From a bacterium (lineage in GTDB: Bacteria > Armatimonadota > Fimbriimonadia > Fimbriimonadales > Fimbriimonadaceae), in the NCBI GenBank assembly GCA_027483535.1, contig JAIXUN010000001.1, positions 101,432-165,431 of the forward strand: 64,000 bases of DNA, given 5' to 3'. Made by a program: the position numbers and the translations under genes. The notes beneath the pieces were generated by a model that was not told the DNA's origin, did no database searches, and was given only the letters and a program-made list of their open reading frames with translations. Below, piece by piece: positions 1,549 to 24,977 of the stretch. Every line of letters starts with the position of its first letter. The first letter of the stretch is position 1.

Positions 1549-2271
1549 CTACTTTTTCAAGACGAATCGTAAGAGTTCTTTCTCCCCGCGCGACAGCACG
1601 AGTTCCCCTTCTTCCACGTAGCCCCGATTCACCTTTTCCAAGAGGCGAATGAACTTGGACTCTAGCTGCATCGCGGCTTCCTCACCCGCCATCATGGTCA
1701 TTCCGCCTGGGTCGATTTGCATGAGCGGACCCTCGGACTGATAGTTACCGAAATAGCGGTTCACTCCTCCAAAGCCGTTGATCTTTAGCTCTCGGGAATC
1801 GAAGCGGATGGTGGGTGGCTCTTCGATGCCTTCAAGCTTTTTGCCCTCTACCGCAAAGAGAGTCCAGTTCTTTTCCGATAAGCTCCACGCGGCCATTGAA
1901 GCCACTTTCACCAGAGGCAATACAGGCCGAATCTTCGAGTTTGGACTAATCATGAAAGCCTTGGCCGTCTCGAACATTCTCTTCCCATTGAGCACTACTT
2001 CGGCCCGGAGACCGTACCGGACTCCCTTTTTATAGGCTGCGCGGGGGATGGGCAGTTGGAAAGGGAGAGGCGACTGCTTTCCTGTAAGCGTTTGGGAGAC
2101 CTCGGCCACATTGGTTTGACCTTCCTTCGCAAAGGCATCGAGGCTGACCGTCAGCACGGCTCCAGCCGGGATCGCGATTCTCTCGCGGTGAACGGCCTCA
2201 CCCGCAATCAACTCGAACCCGCTCTGGGTCTGCGCGATGAGAATGCCTGTGACTGCAAGTGCGGAAATCAT
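1549..2271 (-). CDS. YbaY-like lipoprotein domain fused to META domain
   Basis: N-half IPAGAVLTVSL...QSPLPFQL...YGLRAEV (YbaY-like); C-half W.L..VEG...PTIRFD...GFGGVNRYFGNY...MTMMA (META/HslJ). Confidence 0.8.
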   Translation of the reverse strand: MISALAVTGILIAQTQSGFELIAGEAVHRERIAIPAGAVLTVSLDAFAKEGQTNVAEVSQTLTGKQSPLPFQLPIPRAAYKKGVRYGLRAEVVLNGKRMFETAKAFMISPNSKIRPVLPLVKVASMAAWSLSEKNWTLFAVEGKKLEGIEEPPTIRFDSRELKINGFGGVNRYFGNYQSEGPLMQIDPGGMTMMAGEEAAMQLESKFIRLLEKVNRGYVEEGELVLSRGEKELLRFVLKK

Positions 2272-2373
2272 ACAGTGCTTAGACGTCTCAAGCCTCGGAA
2301 AGGCTAACCAAAAAATCCTGGCCGGTGAGCTAAAAGGGCACCGGCCGTTGGTTCAACGTGTCAAGGCTTGGCT

Positions 2374-2901
2374 TTACTTGAAGATCACCTTTGCCGAGGG
2401 ATCAACCTTGTAGAGCGTTTCCCGTCCCGGCATCCAACGTTCTTTGGCGAAGTATTCCGCTGTGACAAGGATGGTTCCGTCCGACTTCAGTTCGCTGATT
2501 CCACGCACCTTGCTGATTCCGTTGGCATCGCCTTTGACCTCTTCTATGGAGGTGAATTTTCCTGCCGAGAGTTCGAGAGTGCCTTCGGTGCGGAATCCGG
2601 CCGTCGTCAGATAGAAGTACCCGACCGCCTTCTTTTCGGCATCCCAGTAGATGAGCGTCTCGCCGCCGTACTCGCCCTCGTTCAGGCTGTGCATGGTTCG
2701 GATGGCCTTTCCGTTCATCGCACGTTCCATACGCATCACGTCCACTAAGGGCTTCTCTGGGGTTGAGTTCTTGAAAACTCCTCGATACGTCTTGTTCAAG
2801 AACGGTCGCAAAGGCTCAAGATGCGGGTCGAGCGATTCCTCCGCAGACGGTCCACTCCCCAGGGGAAGCGCGATGGCGATAATGGCAAGAGCACAATTCA
2901 T
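2374..2901 (-). CDS. Secreted hypothetical protein (beta-barrel-like)
   Basis: 175-aa ORF with signal peptide-like N-terminus; -10-like TAGAGT 6 nt upstream of ATG. Confidence 0.7.
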   Translation of the reverse strand: MNCALAIIAIALPLGSGPSAEESLDPHLEPLRPFLNKTYRGVFKNSTPEKPLVDVMRMERAMNGKAIRTMHSLNEGEYGGETLIYWDAEKKAVGYFYLTTAGFRTEGTLELSAGKFTSIEEVKGDANGISKVRGISELKSDGTILVTAEYFAKERWMPGRETLYKVDPSAKVIFK

Positions 2902-2938
2902 ATTTGAACTCTATCACTCCTTTTGGCGGAGCCGTTTC

Positions 2939-2974
2939 AAAAAAATCCCCCGTCGGACCTTGCCGACGAGGGAT
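2939..2974 (-). terminator. Intrinsic terminator of chemoreceptor gene
   Basis: On minus strand ATCCCTCGTCGG-CAAGGT-CCGACGGGGGAT followed by T tract. Confidence 0.7.
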
Positions 2975-2999
2975 CTCAGGACCTGCTTTCCCGAACGGG

Positions 3000-5432
3000 T
3001 TAGGCGGCTTTCTTGTACGACGGCGTCGTCGTCGCTAGATTCGACCCATCGTCCTTCAGGCGGAACTGTGCGGCGAGCTCTTGCATCTTGACCGCAAGTT
3101 CGCTGAGTTCTGCCGACTGAGCGGTGAGCTCTTCGGTCGCTGCCATCTGCTGTTGAGCGGAGGTGCTGACGCTCTCCACCTGATTCGCGACCTCGTTGGT
3201 CGTTGCCGACATTTCTTGGGCAGCAGCGGCGTTCTCCTCGGCGGCGGCAGCGGCTTGCTCAACAGAGCTCTTCACTCCGTGCGACAAGGTGTCTACACGA
3301 CCCATTCGATTCTCGACTCGCTTTACCGGCTCAGAGAGAGCCTGAACTTGCTCGAGAATGCTCGCGAGCGACTCCTTCGCCGAAGACGAAAGCTTTACGC
3401 CGCTATCGACGGCATCGTTGGCCTCCGACATGGCAGAACTCGACTCGCCGACCAGACCTCGCATCTCCTCGATGAGAGAAGCGATATCGCGGGTAGCTGC
3501 GGCGCACCTTTCGGCGAGCTTTCGGACCTCATCAGCAACAACCGCGAAGCCGCGTCCATGCTCTCCGGCTCGAGCCGCCTCGATGGCGGCGTTCAAGGCA
3601 AGAAGATTGGTTTGACCCGCAATTTCGTCGATGAGATTGACGATCGCTCCGATCTGACCCGACTTCTCGTTCAGGTTCTCAAGACGATTCGCAACCGTGG
3701 CGGTGCGGTTCTTGATCTGATCCATTCCGTCGAGCGTTTGTTGAACAGCCTGACCACCTTGGTTGGCAGTCTTTGCAGCAAGCGTGGTTGCCTGACTGAC
3801 TTCGGTGAGAGCCGTCGTCGCCGACTCAATGGATTCCGCCATTTCGCTCACCTCGTTCATGACCCGATTCAGCAGCATTGCCTGATGCTCGGAAGCCTTA
3901 GCGACTTCGGAAGAAGCATTAGACGTTTCGCCAGAAGCGTGCTGAATGTTGATGGCGCTGTCTGCCACCGACTCGGAGGCGTTCGCAATTTGTCCGGCGG
4001 CACCGGACAACATCTTCGAAAGGTCGGTGACTTTGCCACTCACCTCTTGAAGCGTCTTGATGGTTCCGGCAACGCTCGATACAACGGTTCTCATGGCATG
4101 ACCCATGACATCCTCTTCGGCTTGCGCTCGTTCGTCGTAACGAAGTCGCAGATCACCTGCGGCGATCCTACTTGCCCAGCCCGTGTACTCGCGCATTTTC
4201 GAAACAAGGAACCGCATGCCTGTGGCAAGCCCACCGATTTCGTCGTTACGGCTGTAGCTGATTTCGACGTCGAGATCGCCATGCTGCAATCGGTCGAGCG
4301 CGCCTGCCATTTGCTCGATCGGCTTGGTGATCGAATTTGCGATCATGACCGCTCCGAAAAGGAGGATGGCCACGGTTATGAAAGCGAGGAGTGTGAGTTG
4401 AGAACGCGCGGCATTAGAGGTGGCAAAGAAGTCACTCGCTGCATCAGAAACTAGAACGCTCCACTTGAGCCCCGGATATCCCAGAGCACCCTTGGAGTGG
4501 GTGTAACCAACGGCAACTTCGTTTCCGGAAGCATCTTTGTACACCGAGGTCCCGGATTTTCCGGCGATGGCAGCCTTTGCACCCGGATCTCCCTTTTCAA
4601 CAAGGTTAGCGGCAGCAAATTTTGTTTCGTTGCTCTCGATAGGTTTTTGGGTACCCGCATCCACCATGTAACGGTCCAGAATCAAACCCTTCGAGTCGAT
4701 CAGCGTGAGTACGGGCGACTTCATGCCCGCCTGGGTCATTTCTCCGTGACCCTCGGCGAGGATGTTCTCCACAACCGCCATTCGCGCGTAGTTTCGCCAA
4801 ACGCCGATGACCTTGCCTTTCGCGTCCTTCACAGGGGCACTGAACGCCATGAGAGCACCCGGGTCGTTCTTGAAAATCTGATCCAGGTCCGCGAACTCCG
4901 CGGGTTCGTCTACCCAAGTTCCGGTGAGCTTCTCGGTTTCGACAAACTTGCCTGCAAGGCAGTTTTTGAACCATTCCGAGTTCGCAAAACTCTTCTTGTA
5001 GAGAGACTTGGTGTTGACCGCATTTCCTTCGAAGTCGATGCCGTTAACGGCAACAACACGCCCTTTCAGATCGACCATCATCATGAGGCGATAGACGGGG
5101 CTGTAATTCACCATGTATTTGTTCATGGCGGCGGCGATGGCGTTGTCAGCGGTCGGCTTGTACCAACTGGCCGAGTCTTTGACAACATCGTTCAGTCCAA
5201 AGGCCTGAACGTCACCGTATCGTTCAAAAAGGTTTCGCTCTATCCGACTCACAACGGTTTGAGACTGAGACTGAAGGCTCTCTTCTCTCTGCATCGTGAG
5301 TTGACCAATATTTCCAAGCGCAACAAAGGTGGCAATGATGAGGGGTACCAAGCCAAAGGCTAGGAACATCAGCACCAAGCGGTGCTTCAACGAACGAACT
5401 TTAAACATGTTTTTTCGCGGTCCTGCTCTCAT
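3000..5432 (-). CDS. Methyl-accepting chemotaxis protein (Cache-like sensor, HAMP, MCP signalling domain)
   Basis: Two TM helices, HAMP segment, hairpin-tip motif [37 protein letters not shown]; start may be at 5408. Confidence 0.95.
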
Positions 5433-7635: not shown

Positions 7636-8669
7636 GGGAGGCGCTGCTCCTCCTGAGCGAGCACTTCAAAGAACTCTTCGAGCGTTTGGGTGAGCTTGAG
7701 CGCCTCGAAGTGCGGAAAGTCGCCGTGATTGTTCGCAAACTTGATCCACTGCTTCAGGCGAAATAGACCGCCCACCCCGCCTTGCCCAAGGGGACCTTGA
7801 GTCTCTAGCCTGCGTTGCGATCGAAAACCGCTCTTCTCCTTCTTGCGAGCCATTTGAGCGTGAAGGTCGAGTAAGAACTCTTTGAAGAGGGTTTCCCAAA
7901 GAAAATCAGGTTGAGCTTCGTGAGTCAGTCCGAGTTCAGTGGCGATTTGCCAGGACAAGATGGGATTCGCAAGAGCGCTGCGGCCGATCATGAACTTATC
8001 GCACCCGGTCTCTTCGCGGCATCGGCGGAACTCATCGATTGTCCAAATGTCGCCGTTTGCGATGACGGGAATGGCTAGTTGTTCGCGCACTTTTCCGACC
8101 TGTGCCCAGAAGACTGGCGGCTTGTAAGACTGCACTCGGGTTCGAGCGTGGATGGTGATCCAAGAGGCACCCCCTTCTTGCACCATCGCCGCGTTCTCGA
8201 ACACGGGGTCGATGGAGTCCCAGCCGAGTCGGATCTTTGCCGAGACCGGAATCTCTGCGGGAACGGCCTCTCGAACGGCTTGCACGATCTCCCGGATACG
8301 ACACGGGTAGCGGAGCAAAGATGCCCCTCCGTCGTTGCGATTCACCGTGGGTGCCGGACACCCGAAGTTGATGTCGATAGCGGTTGCGCCGACCTTCACC
8401 GCGGTTTGAGCCGATTTTGCCATTCGCACCGGGTCGCCACCAAGGATCTGCACTTGCACGGGCAGACCCGTTTCGGTTTGAGCTCCGGTCAGGAGTTCGG
8501 GAACCTCTCTTCGAAAAACTTTGCCCGGAATGGGCGTTTCGCTCACGCGGAGGAACTCCGTGACGGCATAGGAGAATGCGCCCCATCGACCCTGGAAAGC
8601 CCTCATGGCGGCGTCGGTGACGCCGTCCATGGGAGCCAAAACCAAAGCGGGACCATCTTTGGGGAGCAC
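7599..8669 (-). CDS. dus: tRNA-dihydrouridine synthase (DusC-like)
   Basis: LAPMDGVTD, IDINFGCP, VSAKIRLG, TIHART, VIANGDI, MIGRSAL motifs. Confidence 0.92.
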   Translation of the reverse strand: MLPKDGPALVLAPMDGVTDAAMRAFQGRWGAFSYAVTEFLRVSETPIPGKVFRREVPELLTGAQTETGLPVQVQILGGDPVRMAKSAQTAVKVGATAIDINFGCPAPTVNRNDGGASLLRYPCRIREIVQAVREAVPAEIPVSAKIRLGWDSIDPVFENAAMVQEGGASWITIHARTRVQSYKPPVFWAQVGKVREQLAIPVIANGDIWTIDEFRRCREETGCDKFMIGRSALANPILSWQIATELGLTHEAQPDFLWETLFKEFLLDLHAQMARKKEKSGFRSQRRLETQGPLGQGGVGGLFRLKQWIKFANNHGDFPHFEALKLTQTLEEFFEVLAQEEQRLPQGTSETLAITG

Positions 8670-21859: not shown

Positions 21860-23224
21860 TTACTCTCCGGAAGCGGCCGATGCCGGAGCCGGAGCCGTGA
21901 CAGAAACCTGAGAACCAACGAGGTCGATTACGCGCACCACTTCGTTAACCGTCTTCCGGAACGCGCCCGACTGTTCGATGGCAAGCGCCTCGCATCGATT
22001 CCGAGCGTCTTCGCTGGCTACCGGATCGTTGGCAAACTTCACAAAGAAGTCGGCGAGCAACCCGGATTCGCCCACTCGATAGCCCACCCCGTGAGATTCG
22101 CAAAGAAGTTGGAGCGCTCGGAAGTGACCCCGTCGCCGACCGTACGCCACCGGAACACCCCACGCCACGGGTTCGGTGACGTTGTGACCCATGCCGTCCC
22201 AAGCTCCACCCACGTAAGCGGCCTTGCAGTGCCGGTAAGCCACGGCAAGTTCGCCCATGGTGTCTAAGATCAAAATGTCTTCTTCGCCCGGCGTCACCGG
22301 CGGACCGTAAGGACCGGATCGAACGCGGACCTTTAGTCCCATCGACTTCGCAAGTTGGGCAAGCTCGTCGCGCCGTTCCACCCGCCTTGGGGCGATCATG
22401 AGGCGCATGGGGCGTCGTTCTCGAGCCTTCATAAAGGCTTCCAGAACCCATTTGTCTTCGGCAAGGCTATCGGTGCTGCCACTCACCATGAGCGCCTTTT
22501 CAGCGTCTGGCTTGAGCCAATCTTCCAGGTCTTTCTCTCGAACCGCGCCGAGTTCGGCCTTGCGGAGTTCGAGTTTGATATCACCCGTTACAACGAGGTT
22601 GGTGTTGGTAGAGATGAACTCTTTGGCCCAATCGGCTTCTTGCTGAGTGCGGACCATGACGGTTCGCACATGCTTGAGGAGCCACCGATCAAGCGGGGTT
22701 CGTTTGATGCGGCTGTTCAGTAGAACCACGTGCGTGCCGCCGAGAGCGGCTCCGACCACCAGCACCGGAAATCGGTAGCGCTCGGTGAGGATCATCACGT
22801 CGGGCTTCACTTCGGCCAGATAGCGCATGACCGGATAGAAGAAGTCGAACGGCCAGTAGCTAAGCTCCCAATCGGGGTGGGTTTGACGAACGTCGGAGAT
22901 GGTTTTGGCGTCTCTCAGGGTCCAAGCCAGTTGCACGCGGGGCCTTAGCTCGGTGAGCGCGCCCGCAATTTGTCGCATGATGACGAGTTCACCGTCGCTG
23001 GCGCCGACAAGCGCCACTCGGGGACCGTCTAGCTTGGGTTCTGGACTGTGCTGAACGATTCCGCTGAGCCACCGTTCGGGGTTGATCTCGTCGATCTTGC
23101 GGTACTTCAGGTATCGGCGCACCTTGTGAGCGATGAAGTAAGGCGAGAGTGCCAGGCCCAGAAGAGACCATCCAAGGAGCCCGGGGGACAGGCATAGCCG
23201 TAGAGCTTTGTGACTCGTGCGCAT
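21860..23224 (-). CDS. waaA: Kdo transferase WaaA/KdtA family glycosyltransferase (GT30), diverged
   Basis: GSTD, IAPRR.ER, LDTMGEL..AY....AYVGG....GHN..EP.AWGVPV..G; the 23434 start in the ORF track runs into the tRNA array and is not credible. Confidence 0.75.
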   Translation of the reverse strand: MRTSHKALRLCLSPGLLGWSLLGLALSPYFIAHKVRRYLKYRKIDEINPERWLSGIVQHSPEPKLDGPRVALVGASDGELVIMRQIAGALTELRPRVQLAWTLRDAKTISDVRQTHPDWELSYWPFDFFYPVMRYLAEVKPDVMILTERYRFPVLVVGAALGGTHVVLLNSRIKRTPLDRWLLKHVRTVMVRTQQEADWAKEFISTNTNLVVTGDIKLELRKAELGAVREKDLEDWLKPDAEKALMVSGSTDSLAEDKWVLEAFMKARERRPMRLMIAPRRVERRDELAQLAKSMGLKVRVRSGPYGPPVTPGEEDILILDTMGELAVAYRHCKAAYVGGAWDGMGHNVTEPVAWGVPVAYGRRRGHFRALQLLCESHGVGYRVGESGLLADFFVKFANDPVASEDARNRCEALAIEQSGAFRKTVNEVVRVIDLVGSQVSVTAPAPASAASGE

Positions 23225-23380
23225 TCGACCGCTCGGAGCCTTCCTACGCCCCAATGTCCACAAGTTTACTGCTCTGCCGGCAAGTTTTGGGGTTTTCGGG
23301 GAATGGGAATGGGTCGTTTGGCGATAAACAAAGGGCCCGCGAGCGACGGTAAGTGACGAGTCAGACTGAACGAGACTAGG

Positions 23381-23386
23381 TACAAT
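23381..23386 (+). promoter_or_regulatory. -10 box upstream of tRNA-fragment array
   Basis: GG-TACAAT 11 nt before the first unit; similar GG-TAAACT/TACACT recurs 9 nt before each later unit and the tRNA. Confidence 0.6.
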
Positions 23387-23397
23387 ATCAATCTTCC

Positions 23398-23682
23398 GGG
23401 CGGTTAGCTCAGTGGTAGAGCATCCCGACTTCATCGGGAGTGTCGCCAGATTTCTAGAAAGCCATTCAAGGAATCGGTAAACTTAACTAAGCGGGCGGTT
23501 AGCTCAGTGGTAGAGCATCCCGATTCTATCGGGAGGGTCGCCAGATTCCTAGAAAGCTGTTCAAGGAATCGGTACACTTAACAAAGCGGGCGGTTAGCTC
23601 AGTGGTAGAGCATCCCGACTTCATCGGGAGGGTCGCCAGATTCCTAGAAAGCTATTCAAGGAATCGGTACACTTAACAAAGC
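23398..23682 (+). repeat. Three tandem 95-bp units: tRNA-Val 5' fragment + palindromic pseudo-anticodon arm + promoter-like tail
   Basis: Units start at 23398, 23493, 23588 (tRNA at 23683); first 25 nt identical to the tRNA; unit 1 differs from unit 3 at 5 sites, unit 2 from unit 3 at 4 sites. Confidence 0.97.
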
Positions 23683-23757
23683 GGGCGGTTAGCTCAGTGG
23701 TAGAGCACTTCGTTCACACCGAAGGGGTCGTAGGTTCAAGTCCTATACCGCCCACCA
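23683..23757 (+). tRNA. tRNA-Val (anticodon CAC)
   Basis: GGGCGGT/ACCGCCC acceptor stem, GCTC-AGTGGTA-GAGC D arm, CTTCG-TTCACAC-CGAAG anticodon arm, GTAGG-TTCAAGT-CCTAT T arm, encoded CCA. Confidence 0.97.
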
Positions 23758-23771
23758 TTTTTGAAGGTCCC

Positions 23772-24032
23772 ATGTGGACTCTTTACATCCTCCAAAGCGA
23801 ATCGTCCGGTCGGTTTTACGTCGGCCATACAAACGACATGGTGAGGCGGCTCGAAGAGCATCAATCCGGCCAAACAACCTCAACGCGAAATCGAGGACCC
23901 TGGAAAGTCGTCCACCGCGAGGTGTTCGAATCTAAACAACTCGCTGCGAATAGAGAGCGCCAGATCAAAAGTTGGAAGTCGCGGGTGGCGATTCTAGCTC
24001 TCATCGAGGAGTCCGAAACCGACGATCGGTAG
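23772..24032 (+). CDS. Stand-alone GIY-YIG nuclease (86 aa)
   Basis: MWTLYILQS...FYVGHTND..RRL.EH...T..RGPW.....E.F.....A..RE.QIK.WK: GIY/YIG dyad, conserved Arg, His and Glu. Confidence 0.93.
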   Translation: MWTLYILQSESSGRFYVGHTNDMVRRLEEHQSGQTTSTRNRGPWKVVHREVFESKQLAANRERQIKSWKSRVAILALIEESETDDR

Positions 24033-24087
24033 AGCTTCCCGATTCCATCGGGAGGGTCGTCCCGACCAGTCGGGATACGGCCCACCA
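24028..24087 (+). pseudogene. tRNA 3'-portion mimic with anticodon and T arms replaced by TCCCGA..TCGGGA palindromes
   Basis: GGTAGAGC-T-TCCCGATTCCATCGGGA-GGGTCG-TCCCGACCAGTCGGGA-T-ACGGCCC-ACCA, colinear with tRNA positions 17-75. Confidence 0.85.
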
Positions 24088-24100
24088 CCTCCAGATCCTG

Positions 24101-24289
24101 ATGTGGATCCTCTACATCCTCCATAGTGATTCCTCCGGCCTATTAGGCGAACCCAATCTGCGAATCGATCAGGCTGAAATTCCACCGACTCAACATATAC
24201 GCTCCGTCTTGCAGAGACCAGCCAATACAGAGGTGAATCGCTCGGGTCTGACGACGGGACGAGGAAACCCGACCAACACCCGACCTTAG
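24101..24289 (+). pseudogene. Degenerate second GIY-YIG copy
   Basis: MWILYILHSDSSG versus MWTLYILQSESSG; homology lost after about 13 codons; ATG exactly 329 bp after the first ATG. Confidence 0.8.
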
Positions 24290-24416
24290 ATAAATCAACT
24301 CCAAAACATCGCCTCAGCAAAATTGCCGGTAGCAAGATTGCTTGATCGGATGTATGGTGCCGTTAGCTGCAAAAGATTTGCTCTGTTGCTTCTATTGCTT
24401 TTCTGGGAGGAAAAAC

Positions 24417-24977
24417 ATGAAATCGATTAGAATTTTGGCAATTGCCACCGCACTCGGCGCCCTCGCCACCGCGCAAGCCGCTCAACAAACCTACACCTTT
24501 TCCGGAACCATCACCGGTTCCCTCGGAGGAACAAACTTCTCGGCCAAAGAGTTCAGCATCGTCGGAATCGGCGATAGCTCGACCATCGAAAGTCGGAGCT
24601 TTGGTTGGATCAACACGCTCTCTTCCAACACTTTGACCGTTACCGGATTCGCCCCGGTTTCCATTGCCAACCTTGGCGTGTTCATGAACAACGATGTCGA
24701 CGTAGTCGGTGCCTGGAGAACAGGAACGGAAAACCTCGACGTTTACAATGTCACGATCGGTGAAGATCACGACCTCACCGGTCCCTTTGGGCCAAAGTCT
24801 GGAGCCGCGTTTGCGAACCCGGGATCACCCTTTGCCACCAGCGGTGGCGAGTTCGTCATTGATAGGTTCGATTCTCCTGGTACATACAGCGTAAATGCGG
24901 TTGTTCCTGAACCGGCAACGTTTACGGCTTTGGGAATCGGTGCCCTTATGCTTCGACGACGACGGACTAGCGCTTAG
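24417..24977 (+). CDS. PEP-CTERM protein
   Basis: SD GGGAGG, signal peptide, VPEPATFTALGIGALMLRRRRTSA. Confidence 0.92.
   Translation: MKSIRILAIATALGALATAQAAQQTYTFSGTITGSLGGTNFSAKEFSIVGIGDSSTIESRSFGWINTLSSNTLTVTGFAPVSIANLGVFMNNDVDVVGAWRTGTENLDVYNVTIGEDHDLTGPFGPKSGAAFANPGSPFATSGGEFVIDRFDSPGTYSVNAVVPEPATFTALGIGALMLRRRRTSA

What the first reader, a model, noticed from the sequence alone, without database searches (positions are those of the whole stretch)
23398..23682. 95-bp tandem array of tRNA 5' fragments, each regenerating a promoter before the next copy
Seen: unit = GGGCGGTTAGCTCAGTGGTAGAGCA (25 nt identical to the tRNA) + 17-nt palindrome + GGGTCG (the tRNA variable loop) + a 47-nt tail. 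The tail contains a GATTCCT..AGGAATC hairpin and GG-TACACT exactly 9 nt before the next GGGCGG. The sequence before unit 1 is different (GG-TACAAT-N11). The units are not identical (unit 1 has 5 differences from unit 3, unit 2 has 4), arguing against a recent slip or misassembly. Inference: each insertion into the anticodon region brings a new -10 box plus tRNA 5' fragment that restores an intact tRNA downstream, as tRNA-targeting integrative elements do. The most upstream unit is the most diverged, suggesting polarised growth. The units could also yield tRNA-half-like small RNAs.
Basis: partly seen in the sequence, partly recalled or inferred. Interest (0 to 1): 0.8.

Follow-up and report, generated by a model that had tools for sequence, protein, structure and literature searches.

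The report
Dead tRNA copies beside nuclease gene
The 95-base repeats are real: they are dead front parts of a valine tRNA gene, each with its anticodon arm swapped for a hairpin, piled up before the working copy, and they belong to a small nuclease-gene cassette that sits on tRNA genes in several bacterial phyla and that I could not find described.

Summary
There are three 95-bp units (23398-23682) before an intact tRNA-Val(CAC). Each unit is tRNA positions 1-25, a 17-nt palindrome in place of the anticodon arm, GGGTCG, and a 47-nt tail.

An intact 86-aa stand-alone GIY-YIG nuclease gene (23772-24032) starts 14 nt after the tRNA. Its stop codon lies in GGTAGAGC, which opens a fourth copy of the palindrome inside a tRNA 3' look-alike (24028-24087). 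A decayed second nuclease copy follows.

The architecture [hairpin units]n - tRNA - GIY-YIG - hairpin pseudo-tRNA recurs in Armatimonadota, Bacteroidota and Ignavibacteria, with further module loci in MAGs labelled Acidobacteriota, Chloroflexota and Paceibacterota. It occurs with Val, Lys, Ala, Ile, Leu and Phe tRNAs. A closed chromosome carries 12 identical 98-bp units.

Unit ends differ between lineages, so the arrays arose independently, yet the hairpin always replaces exactly the anticodon arm.

Best reading, partly inferred: these are scars of break repair and unequal recombination among tRNA-derived repeats around a selfish nuclease cassette. They are not serial integrase insertions. Promoter regeneration and small RNAs remain untested. 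Copy number is polymorphic. No published description was found.

The parts
23381..23397 (+). Leader before unit 1: -10-like TACAAT (23381-86) plus 11 nt. It differs from the inter-unit tail.
   Evidence: Sequence. Local alignment of the leader against the tail is not better than shuffles, with 270 of 1000 shuffles reaching the score. No consensus promoter was found.
23398..23492 (+). Unit 1, the most diverged: tRNA-Val positions 1-25, hairpin TCCCGACTTCATCGGGA, GTGTCG, then a 47-nt tail with TAAACT in place of TACACT.
   Evidence: 5 differences from unit 3. It corresponds by position to the first, 5'-degenerate unit of the syntenic Fimbriimonas MAG L022.
23493..23587 (+). Unit 2: the same build with hairpin loop TTCTA. 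Sub-threshold tRNA match.
   Evidence: Rfam tRNA 24.4 bits against a gathering score of 29.
23588..23682 (+). Unit 3: hairpin 23613-29, GGGTCG 23630-35, tail 23636-82 with hairpin 23639-45/23659-65 and TACACT 23668-73.
   Evidence: It is identical to the tRNA at positions 1-25 and 43-48. The anticodon-arm region in between differs at 11 of 17 positions.
23683..23757 (+). Intact tRNA-Val(CAC), including CCA.
   Evidence: ARAGORN. Rfam 71.1 bits. Cloverleaf minimum-free-energy fold.
23772..24032 (+). Intact 86-aa stand-alone GIY-YIG nuclease gene (bacterial Slx1-like / UPF0213 type). Its stop TAG at 24030-32 lies inside GGTAGAGC.
   Evidence: Pfam PF01541 E=4.9e-16. PDB relatives 1ZG2 and 1YWL. 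The conserved residues Y5, Y16, G18, R26, H30 and E62 are kept. Relatives at 79-86% identity lie in syntenic contigs.
24028..24087 (+). 3' pseudo-tRNA: GGTAGAGC-T, hairpin TCCCGATTCCATCGGGA (24037-53), GGGTCG, a second palindrome TCCCGACCAGTCGGGA (24060-75) in place of the T arm, then TACGGCCCACCA.
   Evidence: repeat families D2 and D7. The same module follows the stop codon in relatives.
24101..24289 (+). Decayed second GIY-YIG copy. Only the first 38 nt (24101-24138) still match the intact gene, at 82%.
   Evidence: Repeat family D3, start-to-start spacing 329. The ORF translation begins MWILYILHSDSSG and then loses similarity.

Best explanation
The array is a by-product of a small selfish cassette that lives on tRNA genes.

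The cassette has three parts:
- An intact tRNA.
- A stand-alone GIY-YIG nuclease gene that starts a few bases after the tRNA.
- A tRNA look-alike that overlaps the gene's stop codon. Its anticodon arm is replaced by a GC-rich palindrome, called H here.

Each 95-bp unit is a dead copy of the leader plus tRNA positions 1-48 that carries H instead of the anticodon arm.

Proposed mechanism (inferred):
1. The nuclease makes breaks at the anticodon-arm position of these tRNA-derived repeats.
2. Repair by out-of-register strand invasion or unequal exchange copies H from the cassette's 3' look-alike into an upstream partial duplicate.
3. Selection keeps one working tRNA at the proximal end.
4. Once one unit exists, ordinary unequal recombination expands and contracts the array.

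The -10-like box in each tail is simply duplicated leader. The units cannot be tRNAs, because they lack the T arm and the 3' acceptor strand.

Shown: the anatomy, the link to the nuclease gene, recurrence across phyla, independent origins, and polymorphic copy number.
Inferred: that the nuclease cuts DNA there and drives the rearrangements. It is also open whether H is its recognition site or a cut-resistant patch.
For: 1. Local anatomy. The GIY-YIG ORF starts 14 nt after the tRNA. Its stop lies in GGTAGAGC, followed by the same palindrome+GGGTCG as in the units. A 329-bp second-order repeat and a decayed second ORF follow.

2. Same architecture elsewhere.
- Fimbriimonadaceae L003 has tRNA-Val(CAC), the ORF, then GGTAGAGCA-TCCCGGCTCGCCGGGA-GGGTC followed by a true T arm and acceptor.
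- The closed Ignavibacteriaceae chromosome L065 has 12 identical 98-bp units, tRNA-Lys(UUU), the ORF and a pseudo-tRNA.
- Bacteroidota L017, L038 and L091 and Val(CAC) locus L088 show the same build.
- A DNA-pattern scan of species genomes gave 107 stretches. Sixteen carry 2-12 hairpin copies, and about 33 have a GIY-YIG ORF in the retrieved locus.

3. Unbiased sample of 80 metagenome loci chosen by protein only.
- 52 have an intact tRNA ending 8-150 nt upstream of the ORF: Val-GAC 36, Ala 6, Ile 3, Leu-TAA 3, Val-CAC 2, Asn 1, Leu-CAG 1.
- 58 of 79 stop codons are TAG; in the listed sequences these TAGs mostly fall in a D-arm-like GGTTAGAGC.
- 61 of 79 have a perfect hairpin of 6 bp or more within 45 nt after the stop. 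The rate is 5.6% in random windows of the same loci.
- Stems change in a compensatory way: GGCCGAC, TCCCGG, GCCCGAC, CCCCGAT.
- The V-loop, T arm and acceptor after the hairpin match the upstream tRNA at 32 of 32 positions in most loci.
- 12 of 52 also have upstream hairpin units, 1-8 copies. Related contigs carry 8, 6, at least 3, and 2 copies.

4. Independent origins. Units are identical to the neighbouring tRNA up to about position 26 and again through the V-loop. The homology then ends at a different tRNA position in different lineages, about 48 in the window and further into the T arm in L017, L065 and L117. Periods run from 57 to 98 nt.

5. Recurrent breakpoint. In 12 of the 20 distinct loci where no intact tRNA was called upstream, the ORF is preceded only by a tRNA 3' half. 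Homology then starts at tRNA position 28-33, the 5' edge of the anticodon loop.

6. Units derive from the 3' look-alike. The L065 units share the aberrant CGCAGAG with that copy's disrupted T arm and not with the intact tRNA.

7. Polymorphism. Contigs with identical flanks carry roughly 4-5 units with a different loop.

8. Precedent. The phage T6 GIY-YIG homing endonuclease SegB sits among tRNA genes. It is required for tandem amplification of a tRNA+segB segment, and microhomology links the tRNA 5' end to the segB 3' end (PMC13096335; PMC2330249, abstract listed).
Against: - No biochemistry exists for this protein family. It is 86 aa with no DNA-binding domain, so how it would find a site is unknown.
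- If the native anticodon arm is the target, the intact tRNA next to the gene should be cut too, and nothing explains why it is spared.
- Only 12 of 52 loci have upstream units. Arrays can expand by RecA-type unequal exchange without any nuclease.
- H is related in sequence across phyla and tRNA identities. That suggests a specific function, such as a binding site or an RNA element, rather than a mere scar.
- No clean filled-versus-empty allele pair was found, so mobility itself is not shown.
- In the window, the leader before unit 1 is not detectably homologous to the tail. A simple leader-plus-5'-part duplication does not predict that.
Confidence: 0.55

Rival explanations
1. Serial site-specific insertion. 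A mini-element made of tail + tRNA 5' part + hairpin + GGGTCG inserts again and again right after an existing hairpin-GGGTCG site. Each copy brings its own -10 box. The full element is tail + tRNA + nuclease gene + hairpin.
For: - The tail differs from the sequence before unit 1, both in the window and in L065, L088 and L091. It looks as if it arrived together with the tRNA.
- A 95-bp unit equals the full element with the stretch between its two GGTAGAGCA repeats deleted.
- TACACT (window) and TATAAT (L116) sit 9 nt before the tRNA start.
- 'Orphan' cassettes in non-tRNA contexts begin at the anticodon loop, as an element end would.
Against: - No integrase or transposase is present.
- Twelve identical units fit unequal exchange better than twelve insertions.
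- In L038 the inter-unit spacer equals the leader before the first unit, which is plain duplication.
- The unit's 3' end falls at different tRNA positions in different lineages. A site-specific mechanism does not predict that.
- The outcome cannot be told apart from tandem duplication on sequence alone.
Confidence: 0.15
2. The units are functional RNAs. These would be hairpin-substituted tRNA mimics transcribed ahead of the tRNA. They could act as decoys, antitoxins or partners for the nuclease, in the manner of type III toxin-antitoxin repeat arrays, or as tRNA-half-like regulators.
For: - An array of repeats lies upstream of a small nuclease gene.
- The hairpin keeps its pairing through compensatory changes.
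- Units fold better than shuffles, z = -3.3 and -3.6 for units 2 and 3.
- The units would be part of any transcript that starts upstream of the tRNA.
- A 2006 survey noted a fusion of a bacterial Slx1-like GIY-YIG domain to the tRNA methyltransferase TrmH and suggested a role in RNA metabolism (PMC1564403).
Against: - Upstream units are optional, present in 12 of 52 loci.
- Tails and unit ends are not conserved between lineages.
- There is no match in PADLOC for the window protein and no Rfam family other than tRNA.
- The 3' look-alike lacks a conserved 5' acceptor strand, so it is not a full tRNA mimic.
- Breakpoints at the anticodon loop are DNA-level events.
- No RNA data exist for the window locus.
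Confidence: 0.12
3. Ordinary replication slippage or unequal crossing-over of the leader plus tRNA 5' part, unrelated to the neighbouring gene. The palindrome would be a chance replacement.
For: Tandem repeats of this size expand and contract spontaneously. Edge units of any array diverge most.
Against: - The same replacement of exactly the anticodon arm by a related palindrome recurs at Val, Lys, Ala, Ile and Leu tRNAs in several phyla.
- It is tied to the same protein family.
- The palindrome pattern is expected 0 times in the window and found 4 times.
Confidence: 0.08
4. Assembly artefact: a single unit wrongly expanded, or a chimera of strains.
For: - Short-read assemblies of relatives break exactly at the array (L001, L006 and L022 all end there).
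- The window's particular unit variants are not recovered in runs X1-X3.
Against: - A cyclic 125-nt unitig at 3.7-4.7 times flank depth in three runs shows at least two, and probably 4-5, tandem units.
- Arrays are present in chromosome-level assemblies (L065 and L067) and in many independent samples.
Confidence: 0.03

Closest known systems
Free-standing GIY-YIG homing endonuclease SegB of T-even phages and SegB-driven segmental amplification (PMC2330249; PMC13096335)
   Same: - A GIY-YIG nuclease gene embedded among tRNA genes.
- Tandem repeats containing tRNA sequence next to it.
- A junction helped by similarity between the tRNA 5' end and the 3' end of the nuclease gene. Here the ORF ends inside a D-arm-like GGTAGAGC.
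- Unstable copy number.
   Different: - SegB is a larger phage enzyme than this minimal protein. This one is an 86-aa minimal domain of the bacterial Slx1-like branch, on bacterial chromosomes.
- SegB repeats contain whole tRNA plus gene (718 bp). Here the upstream units are 95-bp dead 5' parts.
- I did not find, in the parts of the SegB papers I read, a hairpin that replaces the anticodon arm.
tRNA-targeting integrative elements (phage or island integrases with attL/attR carrying tRNA fragments)
   Same: An intact tRNA is restored at one junction. A displaced tRNA-like 3' piece lies beyond the inserted gene. Repeated events could leave serial fragments.
   Different: - No integrase is present.
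- The 'island' is a single 261-bp ORF.
- From general knowledge, displaced pieces of integrative elements are usually 3' fragments with the native sequence. Here the arrayed pieces are 5' fragments with the anticodon arm swapped for a conserved palindrome.
Bacterial Slx1-like / UPF0213 (YhbQ-type) stand-alone GIY-YIG proteins (PDB 1ZG2, 1YWL; PMC1564403)
   Same: Same size and fold family. Sequence match E=2e-8 to 1ZG2. Minimal GIY-YIG domain without auxiliary domains.
   Different: That family has no established function; repair or RNA metabolism was suggested. I found no report of a link to tRNA genes or to hairpin-substituted pseudo-tRNAs.
Type III toxin-antitoxin systems (ToxIN-like repeat arrays)
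   Same: Short tandem repeats lie upstream of a small nuclease gene, and repeat number varies.
   Different: - The nuclease fold differs: GIY-YIG, not ToxN/AbiQ.
- A tRNA gene sits between the repeats and the ORF.
- Repeats are absent in most loci.
- There was no PADLOC hit for the window protein.

Membership tests
GIY-YIG nuclease superfamily (Pfam PF01541) | GIY-YIG domain with the conserved Tyr, Tyr-x-Gly, Arg, His and Glu positions | tested here: met
   PF01541 E=4.9e-16, 59.2 bits against a cut-off of 22.6. Y5, Y16, G18, R26, H30 and E62 are invariant or nearly so among 26 relatives.
Bacterial Slx1-like / UPF0213 stand-alone GIY-YIG | About 80-110 aa, domain only, sequence-related to BH0048 (1ZG2) and EF2693 (1YWL) | tested here: met
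   86 aa. phmmer E=2e-8 to 1ZG2 and 1.8e-5 to 1YWL. The family is described in PMC1564403.
Free-standing homing endonuclease (Seg / I-TevI type) | A separate DNA-binding domain that gives a long asymmetric target | tested here: not met
   The protein is the catalytic domain only. The match to NCBIfam group I intron endonuclease is 16.7 bits against a cut-off of 56.
Free-standing homing endonuclease (Seg / I-TevI type) | Site-specific cleavage of the allele that lacks the gene, followed by copying of the gene into it | not testable with these tools
   Indirect evidence only: a recurrent breakpoint at tRNA positions 28-33, duplicated and decayed gene copies, and variable content between syntenic loci. 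No empty/filled allele pair was found.
tRNA-targeting integrative element | Integrase or recombinase gene within the element | tested here: not met
   The large ORFs in 19.9-27.7 kb are argininosuccinate synthase, rhamnose mutarotase, Kdo transferase, GIY-YIG, a PEP-CTERM protein and DUF5695.
tRNA-targeting integrative element | A direct repeat of the tRNA 3' part at the far end of the inserted DNA | tested here: inconclusive
   A tRNA 3'-like piece lies at 24028-24087 (families D2 and D7). Both of its arms are replaced by palindromes, and the inserted DNA is one small ORF.
tRNA gene (Rfam RF00005), applied to the 95-bp units | Cloverleaf with T arm and paired acceptor stem, scoring above the gathering score | tested here: not met
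   The best unit scores 24.4 bits against a gathering score of 29. ARAGORN calls none. The units lack the T arm and the 3' acceptor strand.
Type III toxin-antitoxin | A ToxN/AbiQ-type endoribonuclease with an obligatory upstream repeat array | tested here: not met
   No PADLOC match for the window protein. Upstream units are present in only 12 of 52 loci.

The most novel reading that the evidence does not exclude
The hairpin that replaces the anticodon arm is the cognate site of the minimal Slx1-like GIY-YIG nuclease, at the DNA or the RNA level. Nuclease and hairpin-substituted tRNA mimic would together form a previously unrecognised, phylum-spanning class of mobile element. It would use the conserved D-arm and T-arm sequences of tRNA genes as portable homology. 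The arrays would then be working parts, such as multiple nuclease sites or tRNA-mimic RNAs, and not just scars.
Probability: 0.15. Interest if true: 0.9.

Novelty: new variant of a known kind. Interest (0 to 1): 0.7.

Why it matters
- Function of an orphan family. Stand-alone bacterial GIY-YIG (UPF0213 / Slx1-like) proteins are very common. This query alone reaches 7,096 clusters at 50% identity. Solved structures have existed since at least 2006 (they are discussed in PMC1564403), yet no function is known. A tight, cross-phylum link to tRNA genes and to a conserved hairpin gives that question a concrete, testable answer: a selfish nuclease living on tRNA genes.
- Genome annotation. The link explains a recurrent class of pseudo-tRNA calls. 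It explains N-terminally over-extended GIY-YIG gene models that read through the tRNA. It also explains assembly breaks at tRNA loci in metagenome genomes.
- Generality of a recent finding. It would show that nuclease-linked tandem amplification at tRNA genes, just demonstrated for phage SegB, has a chromosomal counterpart in bacteria.

Tried and rejected
- Promoter scan. No sigma-70-type promoter was found in 23000-24500, so 'each unit regenerates a promoter' stays a -10-like hexamer only.
- Rfam at a permissive threshold. Only tRNA hits plus two chance hits under the tRNA itself. No known RNA family covers the units.
- Leader versus tail. The leader before unit 1 is not homologous to the tail above chance, so in the window I could not show that the tail is the ancestral leader. 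In L038 it clearly is. In the syntenic L022 the region upstream of the first unit holds a further tail-like copy.
- RNA evidence. RNA-labelled runs laid on the Fimbriimonadaceae locus L003 gave only contigs. One 'RNA' run looks genomic, and a true metatranscriptome covers the leader and tRNA but not the ORF. This was uninformative. No RNA run holds the window's array.
- Full tRNA mimic idea. I tested whether the 3' look-alike is a complete tRNA mimic overlapping the ORF end. It is rejected in general, because the 5' acceptor strand is not conserved.
- Defence-system and naming libraries. PADLOC gave nothing for the window protein and NCBIfam gave only sub-threshold hits.
- Literature. Seven full-text searches found no description of a tRNA - GIY-YIG - pseudo-tRNA module. 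Only open-access papers and bioRxiv were searched.
- Noise in the DNA-pattern scan. Many hits are genuine tRNA-Asn(GUU) and tRNA-Val(UAC) genes of Patescibacteria and Verrucomicrobiota whose real anticodon stem is TCCCG/CGGGA. These are not part of the phenomenon.
Full report
**1. The observation**

Tandem Repeats Finder reports an array at 23397-23707 with period 95, 3.3 copies and 94% matches. ARAGORN finds one tRNA in the whole window, tRNA-Val(CAC) at 23683-23757, and Rfam scores it at 71.1 bits.

- 25 nt identical to the tRNA 5' end.
- The 17-nt palindrome TCCCGA-N5-TCGGGA.
- GGGTCG.
- A 47-nt tail with a GATTCCT/AGGAATC hairpin, and TACACT 9 nt before the next copy.

Unit 1 differs from unit 3 at 5 positions and unit 2 from unit 3 at 4. 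The palindrome+GGGTCG pattern occurs four times in the window against none in 100 shuffles.

**2.

Fourteen bases after the tRNA starts an intact 86-codon ORF (23772-24032). It is a GIY-YIG nuclease domain and nothing else (Pfam E=4.9e-16). Its relatives with solved structures are the bacterial 'UPF0213' proteins 1ZG2 and 1YWL, classed as the minimal bacterial Slx1-like branch of the superfamily (PMC1564403). The conserved Tyr, Tyr-x-Gly, Arg, His and Glu positions are kept.

The stop codon TAG lies inside GGTAGAGC. That sequence opens a tRNA 3' look-alike (24028-24087). In it the anticodon arm is the same palindrome, and the T arm is a second palindrome, TCCCGACCAGTCGGGA. After it comes the decayed start of a second copy of the gene (24101-24138, 82% identical). 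The segment from the tRNA 3' part through the ORF is therefore itself repeated with period 329.

The neighbouring large ORFs are housekeeping genes, and none is an integrase.

**3. Is the array real?**

Three metagenome runs have flanking contigs identical to the window. In them the array collapses into a 125-nt unitig, which is 95+30 and therefore a cycle at k=31. Its depth is 60-84 against 16-19.5 for the flanks. It carries two base differences from the window's unit 2, one of them in the hairpin loop. A fourth run holds a strain with another loop variant.

So the array exists. Those populations carry about 4-5 near-identical units, and unit number and loop sequence vary. The window's exact three-unit order could not be re-verified.

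Contigs of close relatives (L001, L006, L022) end exactly at the array. L022, a Fimbriimonas MAG with the same upstream Kdo-transferase gene, carries the same 95-bp units plus an older decayed one. The organism is therefore an Armatimonadota bacterium close to Fimbriimonas.

**4. The same architecture elsewhere**

Relatives of the protein were looked up in their contigs.
- In sludge Fimbriimonadaceae (L003-L005), tRNA-Val(CAC) is followed after 9 nt by the ORF. The ORF's stop lies in GGTAGAGCA, followed by TCCCGGCTCGCCGGGA, GGGTC, and then a T arm and acceptor almost identical to the real tRNA's.
- A DNA-pattern scan of one genome per species (GGTAGAGC-N-TCCCG-N6-7-CGGGAG-N-GTC) gave 107 stretches. 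Some are genuine tRNA-Asn and tRNA-Val(UAC) genes with that stem.
- Many other stretches are hairpin copies next to Lys, Val or Phe tRNAs with a GIY-YIG ORF, in MAGs labelled Bacteroidota, Ignavibacteria, Armatimonadota, Acidobacteriota, Chloroflexota and Paceibacterota. I read the sequences themselves only for the first three phyla.
- Sixteen stretches hold 2-12 copies.
- The clearest case is a closed Ignavibacteriaceae chromosome (L065). It has twelve identical 98-bp units, each made of tRNA-Lys positions 1-25, TCCCGACTTTTCGGGA, GGGTC, a piece of T arm and an AT-rich tail. Then come the intact tRNA-Lys(UUU), the ORF with its stop in GGGTAGAGCA, and a disrupted tRNA 3' look-alike.
- L017, L038, L088 and L091 show the same build with periods of 68-73 nt.
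- The cultured Solitalea longa carries repeated unit+tRNA-Lys blocks.

**5. An unbiased sample**

Eighty metagenome loci were picked by protein similarity alone.
- tRNA adjacency. Fifty-two have an intact tRNA ending 8-150 nt upstream of the ORF: Val-GAC 36, Ala-GGC 6, Ile 3, Leu-TAA 3, Val-CAC 2, Asn 1, Leu-CAG 1.
- Stop codon. Fifty-eight of 79 stops are TAG; in the listed sequences these TAGs mostly fall in a D-arm-like GGTTAGAGC.
- Hairpin. Sixty-one of 79 have a perfect hairpin of at least 6 bp within 45 nt after the stop. The rate is 5.6% in random windows of the same loci and 7.5% in shuffles.
- Compensatory change. The stems vary while keeping their pairing: GGCCGAC/GTCGGCC, TCCCGG/CCGGGA, GCCCGAC/GTCGGGC, CCCCGAT/ATCGGGG. 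The centre of the palindrome is free to vary.
- Downstream identity. After the hairpin, the V-loop, T arm and acceptor match the upstream tRNA at 32 of 32 positions in most loci. The 5' acceptor strand is not conserved, so this is not a complete tRNA mimic.
- Upstream units. Twelve of the 52 loci also carry upstream hairpin units. Related contigs have 8, 6, at least 3, and 2 copies of a 72-nt unit.

**6. What the units are**

In every array the unit is identical to the neighbouring tRNA up to about position 26. It carries the palindrome in place of the anticodon arm and matches the tRNA again through the V-loop. Where the homology then ends differs between lineages: about position 48 in the window, and further into the T arm in L017, L065 and L117. 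After that comes a lineage-specific spacer. The arrays therefore arose independently, yet always with the palindrome.

In L065 the units share the aberrant CGCAGAG with the disrupted T arm of the 3' look-alike and not with the intact tRNA. The palindrome-bearing part of the units therefore comes from the cassette's 3' flank.

In L038 the spacer equals the leader before the first unit, which is plain duplication. In the window, L065 and L088 it does not.

A -10-like box at the right distance is seen in the window and in L116 but not in most other lineages. No consensus promoter is found here.

**7. A recurrent breakpoint**

In 12 of the 20 distinct loci where no intact tRNA was called upstream, the ORF is preceded by a tRNA 3' half only. 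Homology to the reference tRNA then starts at position 28-33, the 5' edge of the anticodon loop. This holds for Val, Ala and Ile tRNAs. Together with the exact replacement of positions 27-43 in all dead copies, this marks the anticodon arm as the place where DNA is broken and rejoined.

**8. Mechanism**

I commit to the following, with the second half marked as inference. The array is a by-product of a selfish cassette made of a tRNA, a GIY-YIG gene and a hairpin pseudo-tRNA.

Inferred steps:
1. Breaks occur at the anticodon-arm position of these tRNA-derived repeats, most simply made by the encoded nuclease.
2. They are repaired by out-of-register invasion or unequal exchange.
3. This copies the palindrome into an upstream partial duplicate of leader plus tRNA 5' part.
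4. Selection keeps one working tRNA.
5. Ordinary unequal recombination then resizes the array.

This explains several features:
- Identical units in L065.
- Varying copy number among near-identical strains.
- The diverged edge unit.
- The tandem or decayed extra gene copies in the window, L001, L017 and L088.

An experimental precedent exists. The phage GIY-YIG homing endonuclease SegB lies among tRNA genes. It is required for tandem amplification of a tRNA+segB segment, and microhomology joins the tRNA 5' end to the segB 3' end (PMC13096335; PMC2330249, from the abstract).

Open points:
- Whether the palindrome is the enzyme's site or a cut-resistant patch.
- Why the intact tRNA is spared.
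- How an 86-aa domain finds its target.

The relatedness of the palindrome across phyla argues that it travels with the gene and has a specific role.

**9. Rivals**

It lacks a recombinase and does not predict the variable unit ends.
- A functional-RNA reading (decoy, antitoxin or tRNA-half-like species) is weakened because upstream units are optional and their tails are not conserved. It is untested, because no usable RNA data exist.
- Plain slippage unrelated to the gene is contradicted by the cross-phylum recurrence.
- Assembly artefact is contradicted by the depth data and by the chromosome-level assemblies.

**10. Novelty**

Seven full-text searches found papers on phage and organelle GIY-YIG homing endonucleases and on the superfamily. 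None describes this chromosomal tRNA - GIY-YIG - hairpin-pseudo-tRNA module or its 5' unit arrays. Only open-access literature was searched.

The protein family is large: 7,096 clusters at E<=1e-3 and 500 at E<=1e-10. I file the finding as a new variant of a known kind, namely a free-standing GIY-YIG selfish element at tRNA genes with associated tandem amplification. It has features not reported for that kind:
- A minimal Slx1-like enzyme.
- A conserved palindrome replacing the anticodon arm.
- Arrays of dead tRNA 5' parts.

Noticed in passing
window 24060-24075; L010 about 117-134; L176/L177/L179 downstream of the ORF: In some 3' pseudo-tRNAs the T arm or T loop also carries a palindrome. The window has TCCCGACCAGTCGGGA. 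L010 has TCCCCAAAGCTTTGGGGA. L176, L177 and L179 have a 20-nt insertion with TCCCGG..CCGGGA in the T loop. So both hairpin loops of the tRNA-like DNA can be hit.
   Followed up: partly
window 23429-23433, 23524-23528, 23619-23623, 24043-24047: The 5 central bases of the palindrome are hypervariable while the stems and the rest of the unit stay constant. The variants are CTTCA, TTCTA, CTTCA and TTCCA in the window, TTCAA in runs X1-X3, CTCTA in run X4 and TCAAA in L022. Three of the 4 differences between units 2 and 3 lie there.
   Followed up: partly
window 23697-24032: The longest ORF call (111 aa, GTG start) reads through the tRNA into the GIY-YIG gene. Many database relatives have 20-60 aa N-terminal extensions that are probably the same gene-calling artefact.
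   Followed up: no
L001 1-2000 (JGI contig, syntenic with the window): The relative has two GIY-YIG copies, each followed by the hairpin module, with a 243-aa ORF without any Pfam hit and another ORF inserted between them. L006 has the tRNA and gene abutting DUF5695 with no 3' pseudo-tRNA. The locus content turns over fast between close relatives.
   Followed up: partly
L013 147-390; L088 1417-1560: These loci show the tRNA-Val(CAC) followed directly by two tandem hairpin pseudo-tRNA 3' pieces. Each piece is preceded by what looks like the last codons of a lost GIY-YIG ORF. Arrays therefore also form on the 3' side.
   Followed up: partly
L152 and L182, upstream of the ORF: In two 'orphan' cassettes the sequence just before the tRNA 3' half ends in GGTCGGCC or GGCCGGCC, the latter a variant. 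The former is the 3' arm of the soil-clade hairpin. This suggests chimeric hairpin/anticodon-arm junctions.
   Followed up: no
L028 (Nostocaceae MAG) 2175-3642: A dense array of 14 different tRNA genes was picked up only because its tRNA-Asn has the TCCCG/CGGGA stem. It looks like the long tRNA arrays described in PMC8421152 and is unrelated to the finding.
   Followed up: no
L086 about 7700-7720 (Solitalea longa HR-AV): The isolate assembly has an N and a duplicated half tRNA 5' end inside its unit+tRNA-Lys repeats. This points to a mis-assembly at this kind of locus even in a cultured strain.
   Followed up: no
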